A stretch of DNA of 64,000 nt, from NCBI GenBank assembly GCA_964016885.1, contig OZ024759.1, positions 21,948,001-22,012,000 on the forward strand, in the 5' to 3' direction. The notes under the pieces were generated by a model. That model did no database searches and was not told the DNA's origin. It saw only the letters and a list, made by a program, of their open reading frames with translations. This document shows, piece by piece, positions 23,777 to 36,071 of the stretch (the stretch's first letter is position 1; each line of letters opens with the position of its first letter). The stretch is from Eledone cirrhosa. Lineage: Eukaryota. The position numbers and the translations under genes are program-made.

Positions 23777-24750
23777 GGAGTAAAATTGCGGGTGTGCAAA
23801 ACCCGATCAATTTTAGAGTCAAGGGGGAGATAATCTGAAAGCATGCCCCCTCCTACCCCCATACTATCTTCTTTCTGTCTCTCTCACTAACGAACGTAAA
23901 CACTCTCACCTCCCCTCCTCTGCAATCTCTATTGCGGGTGTGTAATATCAGATCTCTTTTACAGTCAAGTGGTAGTAAATCTGTAAACATATAGAACGAC
24001 ACCAAGTCCCTACTTGGGCGCTCTACCAGGTAAAAATATCTCGAACAAAATAAATAAATTAATAAAACACGACTATGAAATATCAACGTATTCGCCATAA
24101 TTATATCCACAACTTTATAATAACACACTGATAAGGAAAAATAATAAAGTAAAAACCTAAAGCTGTTAAAAGTATCCATGTTGCCTTCGCAGACGGCAGT
24201 TACATGTGTGTATATATTTATGTATGCCAGTATGTATATATACATTATTGTCTTTATTTACAAAAGTATTTTTCTAATATCGTGTTTAATATTTCATATT
24301 GTGTCGTCTGGTTTTATTCCATTTAATAACGACATATCTCTCAACTCATTCCCCTTTATTTACTTACACACTCTCTCCCCTCTCACAGAGCCTATTCTTT
24401 CTCTCTCTTTTTGCCAGCCCCTTCATCGTCACAGATTTTTCTATGTCTTTCCGTCTCTGCTTTGATTTTAACCCCCCCCCCCCCCCTCTCTCTCTCTCGC
24501 GCGTTTGACTTTTACCTTTTCTTTCTCTCTCCCTCTATGTCGTATTTACAAAACTGTTTTTCTAATATCGTATATTTAATATTTTATATATATATATATA
24601 TAAATATATTCATTAATGTATGTATGTATATATATATATATATATATATAGTCAAAAATTGAACGGGAACAAAACAGAGAGGCAGTACGAACTATCAATT
24701 TTATTTAGTGTTAATTGCGGTCAACGTACAAACAAATTTTCTTTTTATAA

Positions 24751-24796
<46 letters not shown>

Positions 24797-27700: not shown

Positions 27701-30700
27701 CAGTGTCTATAGGAGAGAAACAGTGATAGAAAGAGACAAAGAATGAAGGGGAAGGGAGAGAGAAGAGGCTGTATGAGAGAAGGGACTGGCATAAAGAGAG
27801 AGATAGTAAAAGCTGTGTGAGAGGGGAAAGAAAGAGAGAGTCAGAAAGTAAGTAAATAAAAGGGAATAAGTTGAGAGATATGTCGTTATTAAATGGAATA
27901 AAACCAGACGACACAATTTGGAATATTAAACACGATGTTAGAAAAATATTTTTGTGAATAAGACAAAAGTTTACATATTCATATATGCATACATAAATAT
28001 ATAGATATGTTTACTGCTATATTAATATATATATACACGTGTAACTGCCGTTTGCAAAGACAACATGGATACTTTTAACGGAATTTCACGAAGTTTACGT
28101 TTTTAATTCATTATTTTTCCTTATCAATGTCTTATTATAAAGTTGTGAATGTAATTGTGTTGAATGCATTGATGTTTCACAATCGTATTTTATTAATTTA
28201 TTTATTCTGTTCGAGATGTTTTTACCTGGTAGAGCGCCCAAGTTGAGACTTGGTGTCGTTCTGTATGTTTACATATTTACTACCACTTGACTGTAAAAGA
28301 GATCTGATATTGCACACCCGCAATAGAGATTGCAGAGGAGGGGAGGTGAGAGTGTTTACGTTTGTTGGTGAGAGAGACAGAAAGAAGATTGTATGGAGGT
28401 AGGAGGGGCTGTGCTTTCAGATTATCTCCCCCTCGACTGTAAAATTGATCGGGTTTTGCACACCCGCAATTTTACTCCAGGAGAGTGAACGGAGAAGAGA
28501 AAAGTTGCAGTGAGAGGGACAGAAAGGAGATAGTGTGGTGGTAGGAAGGGGTCAGACGTGAAGACAGAGAGAGAGGGGTTGAGTGGGAATGAAAGGCAGA
28601 GAAATATAGAGGAGCTGCAAAGAGAGAGAGACAGACATATAGATAGAGAGGGATGTTGAGTGAATAGGTGGTAAGACAGAGAGAGAACGATTTGAGAATA
28701 AGAGAGAGGGGGCGACAAAGAAAGAGAGACTGTCTATAGGAGAGAAACAGTGATAGAAAGAGACAAAGAATGAAGGGGAAGGGAGAGAGAAGAGACTGTG
28801 TGAGAGAAGGGACTGGCATTAAGAGAGAGATAGTAAAAGCTGTGTGAGTGGGGAAAGAAAGAGAGAGTCAGACAGTAAGTAAATAAAAGGGAATAAGTTG
28901 AGAGATATGTCGTTATTAAATGGAATAAAACCAGACGACACAATTTGGAATATTAAACACGATGTTAGAAAAATATTTTTGTAAATAAGACAAAAGTTTA
29001 CATATACATATATGCATACATAAATATATAGATATGTTTACTGCTATATTAATATATATATACACGTGTAACTGCCGTTTGCAAAGACAACATGGATACT
29101 TTTAACGGAATTTCACGAAGTTTACGTTTTTAATTCATTATTTTTCCTTATCAATGTTTTATTATAAAGTTGTGAATGTAATTGTGTTGAATGCATTGAT
29201 GTTTCATAATCGTATTTTATTAATTTATTTATTCTGTTCGAGATATTTTTACCTGGTAGAGCGCCCAAGTTGAGACTTGGTGTCGTTCTGTATGTTTACA
29301 TATTTACTACCACATGACTGTAAAAGAGATCTGGTATTGCACACCCGCAATAGAGATTGCAGAGGAGGGGAGGTGAGAGTGTTTACGTTTGTTGGTGAGA
29401 GAGACAGAAAGAAGATTGTATGGAGGTAGGAGGGGCTGTGCTTTCAGATTATCTCCCCCTTGACTGTAAAATTGATCGGGTTTTGCACACCCGCAATTTT
29501 ACTCCAGGAGAGTGAACGGAGAAGAGAAAAGGTGCGGTGAGAGGGACAGAAAGGAGATAGTGTTGTGGTAGGAAGGGGTCAGACGTGAAGACAGAGAGAG
29601 AGGGAGTTGAGTGGGAATGAAAGGCAGAGAAATATAGAGGAGCTGCAAAGAGAGAGAGACAGACATATAGATAGAGAGGGATGTTGAGTGAATAGGTGGT
29701 AAGACAGAGAGAGAACGATTTGAGAATAAGAGAGAGGGGGCGACAAAGAAAGAGAAACAGTGATAGAAAGAGACAAAGAATGAAGGGGAAGGGAGAGAGA
29801 GAGAGAAGAGACTGTGTGAGAGGGGAAAGAAAGAGAGAGTCAGACAGTAAGTAAATAAAAGGGAATAAGTTGAGAGATATGTCGTTATTAAATGGAATAA
29901 AACCAGACGACACAATTTGGAATATTAAACACGATGTTAGAAAAATATTTTTGTAAATAAGACAAAAGTTTACATATACATATATGCATACATAAATATA
30001 TAGATATGTTTACTGCTATATTAATATATATATACACGTGTAACTGCCGTTTGCAAAGACAACATGGATACTTTTAACGGAATTTCACGAAGTTTACGTT
30101 TTTACTTCATTATTTTTCCTTGTCAATGTTTTATTATAAAGTTGTGAATGTAATTGTGTTGAATGCATTGATGTTTCATAATCGTATTTTATTAATTTAT
30201 TTATTCTGTTCGAGATATTTTTACCAGGTAGAGCGCCCAAGTAGGGACTTGGTGTCGTTCTGTATGTTTACATATTTACTACCACATGACTGTAAAAGAG
30301 ATCTGATATTGCACACCCGCAATAGAGATTGCAGAGGAGGGGAGGTGAGAGTGTTTACGTTTGATGGTGAGAGAGACAGAAAGAAGATAGTATGGGGGTA
30401 GGAGGGGCTGTGCTTTCAGATTATCTCCCCCTTGACTGTAAAATTGATCGGGTTTTGCACACCCGCAATTTTACTCCAGGAGAGTGAACGGAGAAGAGAA
30501 GAGGTGAGGTGAGAGGGACAGAAAGGAGATACTGTGGTGGTAGGAAGGGTCAGACGTGAAAACAGAGAGAGAGGTGGTGAGTGGGAAAGAAAGGCAGAGA
30601 AATATAGAGGAGCGGCAGATAGAGAGAGTGATGTTGAGTGAATAGGAGGTAAGACAGAGAGGGAAAGAAGAAGGGACAGAGAGAACGATGGAGGTAGGGG

Positions 30701-31710
30701 GAACAGAGAAAGAGGGATTTGAGAATACGAGAGTGAAAGAGGGGGAAGTAGAAAGTGTAGAGTAAGAGAGAGGGGGAAACAATAAGAAAGAGACTGTGTC
30801 TATAGGAGGGAAACAACGATAGAAAGAGATAGAGAATGAAGATAGAGGGAGAAAGAGAAGAGGTTGCGTGAGAGAAGGGCCCGGCAAAAAGAGTGAGAAA
30901 GTAAAGACTGTATGAGAGGGGAAAGAGAGAGAGAGAGAAGGGGAGAGAGTGTGTAAGTAAATAAATGTTTCTACTTTAGGCACAAGGCCAGAAATTACCA
31001 GTGCATTACTGATACTTTATTTTATCGACCCTGTAAGGATGAAAGGCAAAGTCAACCTCGGCGGGATTTGAACTCAGTGTGTAAGTAAATAAAGGGGAGT
31101 GAGTATGTCGTTATTAAATGGAATAAAACCAGACGACACAATATGAAATATTAAACACGATATTAGAAAAATACTTTTGTAAATAAAGACAATAATGTAT
31201 ATATACATACTGGCATACATAAATATATAGATATGTTTACAATTATATTTATATATACACGTGTAACTGCCGTCTGCGAAGGCAACATGGATACTTTTAA
31301 CGGAATTTCCCGAAGTTCAGGTTTTAAACTTATCTTTACTTCGTTATTTTTCCTTATCAATGTTTTATTATAAAGTTGTGAATATAATTATGGCGAATAC
31401 GTTGATATTTCATAATCGTGTTTTATTCATTTATTTATTTTGTTCGAGATATTTTTACTTGGTAGAGCGCCCAAGTAGGGACTTGGTGTCGTTCTGTATG
31501 TTTACATATTTACTACCACTTGACTGTAAAAGAGATCTGATATTGCACACCCGCAATAGAGATTGCAGAGGAGGGGAGGTGAGAGTGTTTACTTTCGTTG
31601 ATGAGAGAGACAGAAAGAAGATAGTATGGGAGTAGGAGGGGGTATGTTTTCAGATTATCTCCCCTTGACTGTAAAATATTATCTGATTTTGCACACCCGC
31701 AATTTCATTC
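23777..31710. repeat. Mirror-symmetric array of eight ~1-1.5 kb units (3 on +, 5 on -), converging near 27080
   Basis: Unit head GGAGTAAAATTGCGGGTGTGCAAAA starts at 23777, 25331, 26435 (+) and reverse complements end at 27390, 28478, 29505, 30477, 31710; ORF-track peptides recur accordingly (e.g. RYFYLVERPSRDLVSF on both strands). Confidence 0.93.
30966..31077 (-). mobile_element. 5'-truncated SINE with target-site duplication
   Basis: Same family as 36607; flanked by duplicated GTGTGTAAGTAAATAAA (30949-30965 and 31077-31093). Confidence 0.8.
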
Positions 31711-31939
31711 AAATAGAGAATGGGGAAGGGAAGAGGTGAGGTGAGAGGGATAGAAATGAGATAGTCAATAATATATATACACATGCATACATAAATATGT
31801 ACATAGAGAGAGAGAAAGGGTTAAAACGAAGGAGAAAGAGAGATTGAAAGGGTTAAAACAAACGAGAGAGAGAGAGAAAGGGTTAGAAACAAAATAGAGA
31901 GGGAGGAGAGAGAAAGAAAGGGAAAGAACTGTTACAGTG

Positions 31940-31975
31940 GTGGGAGGGGAAAGCGCGGCAAAATCTAATTTGCAA
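31940..31975 (+). promoter_or_regulatory. GINS4 proximal promoter with E2F-like site
   Basis: GCGGCAAA at 31955-31962 (reverse complement TTTGCCGC, fits TTTSSCGC) ~70 bp upstream of the ATG of a replication gene. Confidence 0.45.
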
Positions 31976-32027
31976 ACAAATCGTTTGACGAGAAAGTTTT
32001 TGGTTAGTAAAGTCGAAGGATTTTCCG

Positions 32028-32120
32028 ATGGCCGACCTTGGTCTGTCCCTGGATTTCAGTCGAGACGATGATGATATCGAACCTATGACAGCTAATGAAG
32101 TTCTCTCCAAACTTGAAGAG
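32028..32120 (+). CDS. GINS4: GINS4 exon 1 (MADLGLSLDFSRDDDDIEPMTANEVLSKLEE)
   Basis: ATG at 32028; donor GAG|gtttgt; acidic N-terminus typical of SLD5; phase 0 joins exon 2. Confidence 0.9.
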
Positions 32121-35100
32121 GTTTGTCTTCAATCAATGAATATTTTAATATTTCTAAAGTTTTGTTTTTATTTACTATCAATCAGATAGGTGTGGAAACG
32201 GCCGGAGCTCAGCTGTCGGGGTCCTGACTCTTTTCCTATTACCCACTCTACTAACCCAAGTATCGAGTACTCTGGTGCGTTATGGTCCACCTGGTATCTT
32301 ACCACACTTTGTAATATATATATATATATATATGTGTGTGTGTTGTAAACATATATATGTAAGTGTGTGTAAACATGTATTCGTGAGTGCATAATAATAT
32401 AACATTATTATCCCGCCAAGGTTAATTTTGCCTTTCATCCTTACGGGGTCGATAAAATAAAGTACCAGTAATACACTGAGTAATTTGCTGGCCTTGTGCC
32501 AAAAGTAGAAACAATTATTAATATTCTGAGTTCAAATCCGCCGAGGTTAACTTTGCCTTTCATCCTTACGGGATCGATAAAATAAAGTACCAGTAATGTA
32601 CTGGGTAATTACTGGCCTTGTGCCAAAAGTAGAAACAATTATTAATATTTGGTTTGTTATGATATTATTATTCACTCACGAATACATTTAGCTTTCCACC
32701 ATGTTAAGAGCGAAAACAAATTTTATATATATATATAAATTACATATATTATTTAATTTTATATATATATATATATATATATTACATATATTATTTAACA
32801 ATGATAACAAAGGCAAGTTATTTTACATATATCATTCATTTTTTGACGATCATTTCGGAGGGTTGATCATATCGATATATTGACTAATCTATAACACGTT
32901 AGATAACTGTATACTATCAGACATAATATATGGGTTTGATCATACCGTCTTGTTCGGAGCTAACGGATTATATTGAGTTCTAACTACGGTATAGACCCTA
33001 CCGCGAAAGGTAGACCACATCGAATATATATATATACACATTCACACATACATTATAAAGTATGTATGATCGAAGTCACTGTTGCAACATATATATAAAC
33101 TTTATTGCAAATATATCTCGATATTTATCAGCTCGATGTATAAACGATTGTAATATGCCAATAAAGTGTGTGTGTATATATATATATATATATGCTGCAA
33201 CAGAGACTTCGATTCTACTTGCTTTATTTATACTCGGCTCACTTCAGCCGCCTTAACTCTATGTTCTGAGTTCAAATACCGCCGTTGTTTTGCTTAGCCT
33301 TTCATCCTTACGGGGTCGATAAAATGAAGTACCAGTTACGGTCGATTTAATCGACTTTCCCTTCCCTTCAAATTCCTCGCCTTGTGCCTAAAATAGAAAC
33401 CATTATTTATTCAATCTTTTCACATTTGATCCAATAATTGTAGTTCGGATTGCTCCATGGGTTAGTTTCGTTAAGTTCCGGTCATATTCGTTTACTTCCG
33501 GAATAATAACAACATCTTGTAACAGAACAGAGTCGGATATTGCCGAGAATGGTATAGATCAGTGGTTCCCAACCTGTTGAGCCCCATGCCCTACTTTGAT
33601 ATAAAAACAACGATGATCAACTACAAAGTGTAAACAAATTGGCGTATGGGTGATGCCAGATGCTTAATAACGTGTTGAGGAGGTGCCACAGGAGTTCCCG
33701 ACAGTAATTTGTTCCAAAGTTGCCTTGGTGTAAAAGTAATATGGTAAAACCTGAAGTTTGCTCTTGTTAACTTTTCCAATTGCTCCCTTGTGTGGCATGG
33801 GCCCCACGATGGGAATCACAGATATAGATATTAAAATTAAAGTGACTGCCAGGAAACTGGATGCTTACTCTACAGAAGTATCAGCTATTGAAGTTGACAG
33901 TTATAGGGTCAAAGAAGCAATGAAGGAGATGAAGAATGGTAAAGCTGTGGGATCATCAAAGATAGTTACTGAGGTACTAAAAGCATCAGAAGTAGAAGTC
34001 GAACTCGTAACAAGCCTAGTCAATCAAGTAATACAGGACGGAGTCATACCCAATGACTGGTGCAACAACTATCATCATCATCATCCATCACCGTTTAACA
34101 TCGATTTTGCCACGGAATCATAAATCGATACAAGGCCATACAAGGTGATACTCTAGAAAGGAGCAACTATAGAGGAATAAAACTAATGGACTAAGTTATG
34201 AAAGTGACAGAAAGAGTTATAGCACAGCTAATTAAGGAAAGAGTCAAATTAGACGTGATGCAGCTTGGTTTCATGCTTGGGAAAAAAAAGTATTACAGAT
34301 GCCCTCTTCTTAGTGAGGCAACTAGCAAAGAAGTTCCTAGCCAAGAATAAGCTACTATATTTAGCTTTTGTGAATCTAGAGAAGGTCTTTGACAGAGTAC
34401 TTCAATCTATTATCTGGTAGTCCTTAAGGAAATAGCTAGGTTAAGGATAGGATGGAAGAAGTTTAGAGAGCTACGCCCACTGTTGACTACAATGGTTCTC
34501 CCTATGTACAAAAAGATAGCTGTATGACACTGGTGTGCGAAATAGTAAAATATGAGCAGTGACTGCAGAAGACATGCATAGTTTGGAGAGAAATGAAGTA
34601 ACTATGCTTCATTGGATGTGCCATGTAAATTTGAGATAAAGACAAAGCTTGGACAAGCTGAAGGAGAAGTTGGGTTTAAGAGGATCTGAAGTGGTGTGCA
34701 GGAGAGAAGACTACATTGGTACAGACATGTGATGTGCATGTATGATGCTTGTTGGGTGAAGAAGTGCCAGGAAATTCCAGTGGAAGGAAGCTGTAGTAGA
34801 GGTAGACGAAGAAAGACCTGGCCAGAGGTGGTGAGAGCTGACCTCAAATCACTGAGAATCAGAGAGGAGATGACAAAGGTATGTGGTGAGTGGAGAGATG
34901 CAGTGCTGAAAAATGACCTGTCCAACCCATGCGAGAATGGAAAAATGGGCATTAAAAAATGATGATGCTGATCACCATCATTAACAAACAATTATTGTTG
35001 TCGTCATCACAACTACCATCATCATCACAATTATCGACCCGACTTCCCATGGGTACAAGCCGAAGCTGAAGCATATAGACAATATGCCCCCACCCCTCCC

Positions 35101-36071
35101 CACTACAAAGTGGTCGTGGAGGTGCCACGGCAAAAAAGCACCCAGCCCACACTGTAAAGTGGACATGTAGGTGCCACGGAAAAAAGGACCCAGCACTCAC
35201 TGTAAATGAGGTTGGTGTTAGGAAGGACATCCAGCTGTAGAAATCAAGCCAGAATCAGTTCCTCGCACTGTCCACAACAGGAGAACCAGTCTAACCCATG
35301 CTAGCGTGGAAGAATGGACATAAAACGGTGATGATGATGATGATCATCATCATCATCATAACTATTTTTCTCATCATCACTGCCATCTTCCTCCTGTTCG
35401 TTACCTTTTTTTTGTCTCTCTCTCACACTCTCTCTTTCTCTCCAGGCATGGTTGAATGAGAAATTCTCTCCTGTTTTACTGGGGTCCAAGACAGAAATAG
35501 TGGAGTGTCTCCTCGAACAGATTGGTGTCATGGAGGAGAACATTCGCAAAGCAAAGAAAGGAGATTTTAAAGTTAACATCCACAGAATGGAGGTAAGTGA
35601 TGTTGTGGTGTTCATTATTTGCTACATTGTGGTGGGGGATTGGCAGTGTCAGAAGAGCATCTGACAACATGCTTTGCAGCATATAGATATGCCCTTTACA
35701 ATTTGAGTTCAAATCCCACCAAGGGGTTGATAAAATAAAGTACCAGTAATGCACAAAGTAGCCTTCCTTCATCCATAGACCTTAAACAAAGTAAAAGTAT
35801 ATATAGTTGTATATATATACATATATATATACACACACACACACATCAGAATTGTAGATACATCCATATTATATATATACATCCATCAGTACTATATATA
35901 TACACATCAATATTATATATATACATCCATCAGTACTATAGATACACCCATCAGTATTATATATATACACCCATCAATATTATATATATATATATATGCC
36001 CATCAGTATTATATATATATACATCCATCAGTACTATATACACACCCATCAGTGTTATATATACACCCATC

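What the first reader, a model, noticed from the sequence alone, without database searches (positions are those of the whole stretch)
23777..31710. 8-kb mirror-ordered fold-back array directly upstream of the GINS4 promoter
Seen: units are arranged A-B-C (+) then C'-B'-B'-B'-A' (-), converging near 27080. Diagnostic variants are mirror-matched: the outer pair shares GCCTTCGCAGACGGCAG and ATTCGCCATAATTATAT, the inner pair shares CCCTACGTGGACGCTCT, and B with the three middle minus copies share CAATGCATTCAACACAATTAC. The arms differ in copy number and carry independent SINE insertions (24857, 30966), so this is not a read-chimera artefact. Inference: an A-B-C array was inverted-duplicated and B then expanded in one arm. 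The last unit starts ~320 bp from the GINS4 ATG and points away from it, so a divergent transcript would fold into a multi-kb hairpin (endo-siRNA source or ADAR substrate; coleoid cephalopods are known for extensive A-to-I editing). An FB/TU-type foldback transposon with modular TIRs is an alternative, but I see no target-site duplication.
Basis: partly seen in the sequence, partly recalled or inferred. Interest (0 to 1): 0.75.

Follow-up and report, generated by a model that had tools for sequence, protein, structure and literature searches.

The report
Fold-back arrays inside a Helitron transposon
The two-armed 8-kb repeat beside the GINS4 gene is real, but it is one of nine long fold-back arrays of the same ~1-kb unit, which elsewhere in this animal genome lies between the two ends of a rolling-circle (Helitron) transposon; it most likely formed when DNA copying doubled back on itself, and a role as a hairpin RNA for GINS4 is untested.

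Summary
The layout is confirmed: three + units, five - units, junction at 27074-27075, GINS4 downstream. It is not a locus-specific structure and not a TIR foldback transposon. The unit is the internal tandem repeat of a non-autonomous Helitron: other copies have A|TC 5' and CTAG|T 3' ends, and one has an A|T empty site without duplication. The window copy keeps the 3' end (23078-23081) and lacks the 5' end. Of 10 arrays with at least 7 units, 9 switch strand, at different breakpoints; all 8 single-switch arrays converge and none has the 5' end nearby. Units mostly group by locus, so the fold-backs likely arose repeatedly. Junctions show 0-6 bp microhomology, four with loops of 26 nt or less, which fits fold-back or template switching. 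The mirror order is only partly supported: the pairs differ by 1.7%, 6.7% and 13.7%, so later arm-to-arm exchange is needed. No contig bridged the centre; expression and editing were not testable. Closest known: Tribolium macro-dyad satellites and mollusc Helentron-borne arrays. The scan had no note on this sequence; it noted a similar layout in another family here (retrozymes) and in an arthropod satellite.

The parts
19872..22946 (.). Flank beyond the Helitron 3' end, shared with two other loci (minisatellites and unique pieces; an RTE LINE copy at ~21039-22139 lies in the window copy only): read-through transduction or duplication
   Evidence: 19872-21039 and 22139-22946 match G000:C2:191.47 Mb; 20808-21024 and 22113-22947 match G000:C20:25.366 Mb
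23078..23081 (-). Helitron 3' terminus CTAG, followed by T (23077) and (TA)n
   Evidence: 12 of 13 other copies with an intact end read CTAG|T, one CTTG|T; native RTE copies have another base here and run on
23078..23775 (-). Conserved 3' part ('head'): captured RTE LINE reverse-transcriptase fragment (to 23347, internally deleted here) plus ~430 bp AT-rich sequence
23776..25329 (+). Unit A with an enlarged spacer
24693..24854 (.). 162-bp near-perfect palindrome centred on (TA)n, inside A's spacer
   Evidence: 98.8%; Rfam miRNA hits all below gathering score
24852..24972 (-). SINE in the left arm
   Evidence: (copies elsewhere in the window)
25330..26433 (+). Unit B (631-bp core plus CT-rich tract); 1.7% from unit b3 of the other arm
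26434..27075 (+). Unit C, ends at unit position ~621
27074..27075 (.). Fold-back junction, 0-2 bp microhomology, ~300 bp single-copy spacer on the C side
27074..27391 (-). Unit c, partial (unit positions 1-~325)
27392..30478 (-). Units b1, b2, b3 (starts 28479, 29506, 30478), 1.3-2.4% from each other
30479..31712 (-). Unit a
30966..31077 (-). SINE in unit a with a 16-bp target duplication (30950-30965, 31078-31093)
31713..31805 (-). Outer end of the inverted arm: CT-rich unit piece, then a short TA-rich unit piece; no Helitron 5' end
32028..32120 (+). GINS4 (SLD5) coding exon 1
   Evidence: sequence; no PDB match alone; in frame with exon 2; a contig of run X4 stops at its donor
35446..35592 (+). 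GINS4 exon 2
   Evidence: E 4e-16 to human GINS subunit 4

Best explanation
The array is the internal tandem repeat of an old non-autonomous Helitron that has kept its CTAG 3' end and lost its 5' end, and its inverted arm likely arose when DNA synthesis running from the 3' end through the units folded back or switched template. Shown: Helitron ends in other copies, recurrence at other loci, fixed polarity, short junction homologies, unequal pair ages. Inferred: the switch happened during fill-in of the inserted strand or in a later replication or repair round; the second end rejoined host DNA without the 5' terminus, which would leave the copy immobile; unequal exchange then added b units, and conversion or flipping between the arms made B and b1-b3 nearly identical while edge units stayed old. 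The place beside GINS4 is likely incidental.
For: Helitron identity: 12 of 13 intact 3' ends CTAG|T and 5 of 6 5' ends A|TC; both ends in one copy at C4:312.55 Mb and C2:147.72 Mb; the C4 copy splits a sequence that reads ...TATTAA|TTTCCAG uninterrupted at C3:58.0 Mb, no duplication. Recurrence: 9 of 10 arrays with at least 7 units switch strand; census near complete for the exact motif, 141 of 144 hits in fetched regions. Polarity: 8 of 8 single-switch arrays converge and none has the tail or 5' end in the fetched flank (P 0.016 counting the two C20 loci once). Independence: breakpoints differ; 13 of 17 multi-unit loci form one clade holding all their units. Junctions: 0-6 bp microhomology where siblings allowed a reading; near-symmetric hairpin junctions with loops of 5, 6, 6 and 26 nt at C15:16.01 Mb (two), C9:13.84 Mb, C13:2.049 Mb. 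C24:15.277 Mb shows head, unit, inverted copy back into the head, then the tail. Helraiser needs its 5' end and can read through its 3' end (PMC4778049, passages). Fold-back with a spacer is an established route to inverted duplications (PMC3907307, abstract only).
Against: Four single-switch arrays (C15:14.25, C15:11.16, C13:5.02, C9:28.86 Mb) show no head either, which needs extra deletions. The window junction has almost no microhomology and a 300-bp spacer; c is no closer to C (13.7%) than to B (13.2%) overall, and the C+c clade has bootstrap 62-82. At C9:13.84 Mb the loop is in the distal orientation. The 3' hairpin is weak (-1 to -5 kcal/mol) and absent in the window copy. No autonomous partner with a shared 5' end among 17 RepHel loci. 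The two C20 loci share flank and similar breakpoints, so they may be one event. The timing (at insertion or later) is not resolved; long arrays sit only on small contigs, which points to growth after insertion.
Confidence: 0.62

Rival explanations
1. Twin priming: both ends of the target break primed synthesis on the same element strand (single-stranded Helitron DNA or its transcript), and the two copies were joined in the middle.
For: Predicts exactly the converging polarity, a kept 3' end and a lost 5' end, and imperfect mirror pairs. Unit a is preceded by CT-rich sequence that A lacks, and its first 138 columns are not A-like (22 differences against 10 for A-B). Earlier notes propose this for two-armed retrozyme arrays in this genome (unchecked).
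Against: Would give unrelated breakpoints, but 4 of about 12 converging junctions are near-symmetric hairpins (rough P 0.006). C and c share two private sites and a 4-bp deletion. No hammerhead in the units, no target duplication, ends are Helitron-type. No title or abstract opening among the 6 papers listed for Helitron + twin priming pointed to such a case (listing only).
Confidence: 0.15
2. Plain inversions of part of a pre-existing one-way array, with no duplication, followed by homogenisation.
For: Short internal inversions with both ends kept occur (C9:13.84, C14:39.83, C15:26.28 Mb, C1555). Differently oriented arrays inside Helitrons are mentioned for oyster 'shuffled' loci (PMC12628747, passage).
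Against: An inversion keeps the 5' tail and has two junctions; the 8 single-switch arrays have one switch and no tail, and none diverges. Hairpin-symmetric junctions are not expected.
Confidence: 0.1
3. The window array has been kept or co-opted as a source of long hairpin RNA (siRNA, ADAR substrate) or as a regulator of GINS4.
For: The arm ends 223 bp before the ATG; an RNA across the centre is predicted to fold into a long stem (-686 kcal/mol for 1491 nt, no shuffle control); B and b3 are 98.3% alike.
Against: The same layout occurs at eight other long arrays, whose distal flanks do not match this one. No excess of A>G or T>C in the units. New Helitron insertions favour promoters in cells (PMC4778049 section read), so proximity needs no selection. 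One sequenced sample carries a different version of unit a at 31508-31596.
Confidence: 0.08
4. A foldback (FB, TU, Galileo, Tetris or Rehavkus-like) TIR transposon whose inverted termini are made of tandem modules.
For: Converging modular arms; two loci have a 2-4 kb centre (C24:3.24, C13:5.02 Mb).
Against: Only one end is conserved; outer ends of the two arms share nothing beyond unit sequence; no target duplication; complete copies are one-way with TC and CTAG ends.
Confidence: 0.02
5. Assembly or read-chimera artefact.
For: No listed contig of runs X1, X2, X4, X5 bridges 27074, and C's private stretch had no cover in X1 and X2 (table cut, a hole proves nothing).
Against: Arms differ by 1.7-16%, carry private SINEs (one with a target duplication), and units group by locus. 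A contig of run X1 joins unit a to GINS4 exon 1 over 31597-32224 with 0 differences. A related locus has a similar junction with different sequence.
Confidence: 0.03

Closest known systems
Canonical Helitrons (Helraiser/Helibat1; PMC4778049, passages and section 10 read)
   Same: 5'-TC and CTAG-3' ends, insertion between A and T without duplication, AT-rich sequence beyond the 3' end, captured host or LINE fragment, probable read-through of the 3' end.
   Different: Non-autonomous; 3' end made from an RTE LINE fragment with only a weak hairpin; carries a ~1-kb tandem unit; long copies are folded back and lack the 5' end.
Helentron/HINE-borne satellite arrays of the oyster (PMC7492417, passages read; review PMC12628747, passages read)
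   Same: Tandem arrays carried inside non-autonomous rolling-circle elements; arrays with element parts on one side only; the review mentions arrays oriented in different directions at shuffled loci.
   Different: [quoted passage not shown]
Macro-dyad symmetries of Tribolium satellites (PMC13081366, PMC12581902; passages read)
   Same: Multi-kb arrays made of two opposed sub-arrays; one-way arrays tend to be shorter; potential hairpins or cruciforms.
   Different: Tribolium dyads are (peri)centromeric, number in thousands and share conserved inversion sites, i.e. copies of a few events; here they are dispersed among genes, about ten, inside a transposon, with different breakpoints per locus. 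The 2026 paper states that such dyads were documented only in Tribolium.
Fold-back inverted duplications (PMC3907307, abstract only)
   Same: Inverted copy, single-copy spacer, short homology at the junction, loss of distal sequence.
   Different: Kilobase scale, within a repeat family, recurrent and apparently heritable.
Foldback TIR transposons (FB, TU, Galileo, Tetris; features recalled, Tetris and Rehavkus seen only in passages)
   Same: Opposed arms built of tandem modules.
   Different: No conserved inverted outer ends, no target duplication, Helitron termini.

Membership tests
Helitron (canonical, non-autonomous) | 3' end CTRR followed by host T | tested here: met
   12 of 13 CTAG|T, 1 CTTG|T; window CTAG|T. 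These copies were picked by a match reaching the end, so truncated copies are not counted; native RTE copies differ at this base.
Helitron (canonical, non-autonomous) | 5' end TC preceded by host A | tested here: met
   5 of 6 copies A|TC (two share one flank); absent from the window copy
Helitron (canonical, non-autonomous) | Insertion between A and T with no target duplication | tested here: met
   one filled site (C4:312.55 Mb) against two empty paralogous sites, one matching exactly, one with a substitution at the site
Helitron (canonical, non-autonomous) | Subterminal 3' hairpin | tested here: inconclusive
   imperfect 4-7 bp stem ~8 nt before CTAG in some copies, -1 to -5 kcal/mol, none in the window copy; no shuffle control
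Helitron (canonical, non-autonomous) | Autonomous RepHel partner with a related 5' end | tested here: inconclusive
   RepHel genes abound (150 scored of 3704 candidates); none of 17 long-frame loci shared the 5' end in the 10 kb fetched
Helitron (canonical, non-autonomous) | Mobilisation by RepHel through a circle | not testable with these tools
   needs an assay
Helentron/HINE | Subterminal inverted repeats and T|T-type insertion (recalled; subTIRs in passage) | tested here: not met
   ends are TC/CTAG in A|T; subTIRs were not searched for separately
Foldback TIR transposon | Conserved, mutually inverted outer termini | tested here: not met
   one fixed end only; flanks of the two arms share only scattered common repeats
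Foldback TIR transposon | Target-site duplication | tested here: not met
   none at window ends (by eye) or at the complete copy
Penelope-driven retrozyme array | Hammerhead ribozyme in each unit | tested here: not met
   228,502 bases scanned, 9 loose hits at 4 other loci, none in the window array; those placed against the maps fall outside mapped unit cores; Rfam none
Satellite macro-dyad (Tribolium type) | Multi-kb array of two opposed sub-arrays | tested here: met
Satellite macro-dyad (Tribolium type) | Conserved inversion site shared by arrays | tested here: not met
   breakpoints differ; unit positions ~317-340 recur at three loci only
Satellite macro-dyad (Tribolium type) | (Peri)centromeric location | not testable with these tools
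   the window array abuts a housekeeping gene; centromeres not known

The most novel reading that the evidence does not exclude
Helitron integration itself makes palindromes: fill-in synthesis that starts at the CTAG end folds back inside the tandem units, so this family repeatedly plants one-ended, converging multi-kb dyads among genes, the first dispersed, independently formed macro-dyads outside Tribolium; the arms then keep each other alike by conversion, and those beside promoters, as at GINS4, yield long double-stranded RNA in an animal with heavy A-to-I editing.
Probability: 0.2. Interest if true: 0.7.

Novelty: new variant of a known kind. Interest (0 to 1): 0.42.

Why it matters
Tandem arrays in rolling-circle elements and palindromic satellite arrays are each known. 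What I did not find described (paper searches; listings plus passages of nine papers) is one Helitron family in which nearly every long array has folded back separately, always in the same direction relative to the element. It gives about a dozen natural replicates for asking how long palindromes form, why they persist, whether an inversion promotes array growth, and whether Helitron integration leaves 5'-inverted products as LINE insertion does. For GINS4 it offers a testable but unsupported regulatory idea.

Tried and rejected
Rfam: only sub-threshold miRNA hits on TA-rich hairpins; ARAGORN none. PF05916 search of the genome found nothing (short exons), exon 1 alone had no PDB match; exon 2 settled GINS4. 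Sequencing runs: no RNA holder listed, so no evidence on expression either way. Laid contigs: no listed piece bridges the centre; C's private stretch had no cover in X1, X2; run X5 (organism B) had no cover over most of the GINS4 promoter and exon 1 at 90% likeness, so orthology could not be tested; run X4 (kind not on record) has a contig over 31889-32121 that stops at the exon 1 donor, as a spliced RNA would, and its listed pieces on the array carry several differences each (other copies); the tables were cut. Hammerhead scan negative for units. A>G fossil editing: no excess. Autonomous partner not found. Two patterns were too tight to add loci. Identities come from a rough 173-sequence alignment and run higher than those; I used for grouping only. 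CpG content of distal flanks showed no clear promoter bias. Junction reading failed or was ambiguous at several sites. No supplements were read; repeat libraries in the supplement of PMC13282606 may already hold this family.
Full report
Observation. The window is G000:C20:21948001-22012000 of a 3.0-Gb animal genome. A unit is a ~630-bp core with an internal ~146-bp dimer, followed by a CT-rich tract. The two SINEs are real and independent; the right one has a 16-bp target duplication. The gene is GINS4: ATG at 32028, exon 2 matches human SLD5 at E 4e-16. A contig of run X1 joins unit a to exon 1 (31597-32224, 0 differences); the same contig differs from the window at 31508-31596, so that part is variable. 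No listed contig bridges the centre, which is inconclusive.

The unit is a family. A search with unit B found copies on eight contigs at 75-82% identity. An exact 18-mer occurs 144 times, 0 in the reversed control; 141 of these lie in regions I fetched. Of 49 regions mapped, 43 hold unit pieces of 130 bp or more.

The family is a Helitron. One side of many arrays carries a shared ~830-bp 'head' made of an RTE LINE fragment and AT-rich DNA. It ends sharply: on the element strand 12 of 13 intact ends read CTAG|T and one CTTG|T, whereas free RTE copies have a different base and continue. On the other side a shared tail ends in A|TC in 5 of 6 copies. Two copies hold both ends (C4:312.55 and C2:147.72 Mb). 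The C4 copy interrupts, exactly between A and T and without duplication, a sequence found whole at two other loci. These are the features given for Helitrons in PMC4778049 (passages). The 3' hairpin is weak and is deleted in the window copy; no autonomous partner was found among 17 RepHel loci. In the window the element lies on the - strand with CTAG at 23078-23081 and no 5' end. About 3 kb beyond this end is shared with two other loci, as read-through or a duplication would give.

The fold-back recurs. Ten arrays have seven or more units; nine switch strand (window, C20:25.36, C15:14.25, C15:11.16, C24:3.24, C9:13.84, C13:2.04, C13:5.03, C15:16.01 Mb), one does not (C15:24.31 Mb). Several short copies also switch (C9:28.86, C7:86.40, C14:39.83, C24:15.28, C15:30.99 Mb). 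All eight single-switch arrays (seven long ones and C9:28.86; C15:30.99, whose + arm is 83 bp, left out) converge; none has the tail or 5' end in the fetched flank; four keep part of the head, four show none. Counting the two related C20 loci once, 7 of 7 has P 0.016. Copies that keep the tail have either no switch or two. Breakpoints differ among loci, and in a tree of 173 units 13 of 17 multi-unit loci form single clades that hold both arms where there are two, so the fold-backs arose separately or were homogenised locally. All ten long arrays lie on contigs under 60 Mb: 10 of 27 loci against 0 of 17 on contigs over 90 Mb (Fisher P 0.004; two of the 17 have only short unit pieces, one unplaced contig was left out, and short copies are under-sampled).

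Junctions. Where sibling units allowed a reading, microhomology is 0-6 bp; four converging junctions are near-symmetric hairpins with loops of 5, 6, 6 and 26 nt, more than independent breakpoints would give (4 of about 12, rough P 0.006; the denominator and the null are my estimates). Unit positions ~317-340, a short quasi-palindrome, are used in the window, at C20:25.36 and at C9:13.84 Mb. The window junction has 0-2 bp homology and a ~300-bp single-copy spacer.

Mirror order. B and b1-b3 form a tight clade (1.3-3.0%, bootstrap 91-100); B-b3 differ by 1.7%, A-a by 6.7%, C-c by 13.7%, all significantly unequal. C+c has bootstrap 62-82, with two private sites and two shared with the inner unit of the C20:25.36 locus; 20 of 28 states that A and a share against the B group are the outgroup majority. 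Unit a shares an 11-bp stretch with C that A and B lack and resembles A only in its later part. So the order is roughly mirrored, but the units are mosaics: old edge units and a recently homogenised middle that spans both arms. This needs conversion or flipping between the arms after the first event (inference). Cross-arm identities of 95-99% at C24:3.24, C15:16.01 and C13:2.04 Mb suggest the same elsewhere (rough alignment).

Mechanism. Best supported: synthesis running from the 3' end through the units folded back or switched template, copied part of the array in reverse and rejoined host DNA without the 5' end; unequal exchange and arm conversion followed. Helraiser needs its 5' end, so such copies would be immobile. 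Whether this happens during fill-in at insertion (which would explain the polarity) or later (which the small-contig bias favours for growth) is open. Twin priming explains the polarity equally well but not the symmetric junctions. A plain inversion would keep the tail. A foldback TIR element fails on termini and duplication. A retrozyme array, as earlier notes describe for another family in this genome, fails on the hammerhead.

Function. The arm ends 223 bp before the GINS4 ATG and an RNA across the centre would fold, but nothing here shows transcription; no A>G excess is fossilised in the units, and new Helitron insertions favour promoters in cells. I rate co-option at about 0.08.

Comparison and novelty. 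Papers seen: PMC13081366, PMC12581902, PMC7492417, PMC12628747, PMC13282606, PMC13427858, PMC13277930 (passages), PMC4778049 (passages and section 10), PMC3907307 (abstract); other papers as listings only; no supplements. Tribolium macro-dyads share the layout but have conserved inversion sites and are (peri)centromeric, and were said to be confined to that genus; the two later papers only cite them. Oyster Helentron arrays kept one orientation without exception in one survey, although a review mentions differently oriented arrays in Helitrons at shuffled loci, which lowers the novelty. Verdict: real, explained as a new variant of known kinds, of moderate interest (0.42).

Noticed in passing
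window 24693-24854: 162-bp 98.8% palindrome centred on (TA)n inside unit A's spacer, next to the SINE; MITE-like or a local fold-back.
   Followed up: no
window 19872-22946; G000:C2:191.470-191.472 Mb; G000:C20:25.365-25.366 Mb: Three loci share up to ~3 kb beyond the Helitron CTAG end (37-bp and 34-bp minisatellites and unique pieces): possible read-through transduction; outer end not defined.
   Followed up: partly
window 31508-31596: A contig of run X1 replaces these 89 bases by 36 others while matching 31597-32224 exactly: a variant haplotype of unit a.
   Followed up: no
G000:C13:5033450-5037730 (L153): 4.3-kb non-unit spacer, partly CpG-rich and possibly holding a gene start, lies between the two converging arms of the C13:5.03 Mb array.
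   Followed up: no
G000:C3:139877230-139893093 (L051, L052): 2.8-kb inverted duplication at 98.8% identity, 10 kb apart, that includes a head and a partial unit; a 1.9-kb palindrome lies between.
   Followed up: no
G000:C20:3.5-5.2 Mb, C27:13.0-15.5 Mb, C19:35-40 Mb, C16: Dozens of RepHel matches with near-equal scores and the same 362-aa open frame, spaced about 100-200 kb apart on one strand: a young Helitron riding in large tandem segmental repeats?
   Followed up: no
L172-L173 (G000:C4:298588000-298600000): Open frames of 500-1700 codons in several frames on both strands beside a RepHel gene; satellite-like.
   Followed up: no
L042/L150 (C13:27.16 Mb), L063 (C18:37.01 Mb): Hammerhead-like cores with 10-12 bp stems near but, by the maps, outside the unit cores; probably the retrozyme family of earlier notes.
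   Followed up: no
L113, L116, L117, L118, L124, L126, L129: An abundant sister Helitron family shares the 5' region but ends A|TCTATATAAAT and shows no units within the ~1.5 kb fetched.
   Followed up: partly
window 4371-6107: 1.7-kb (TA)n-rich tract; many other minisatellites in the window.
   Followed up: no
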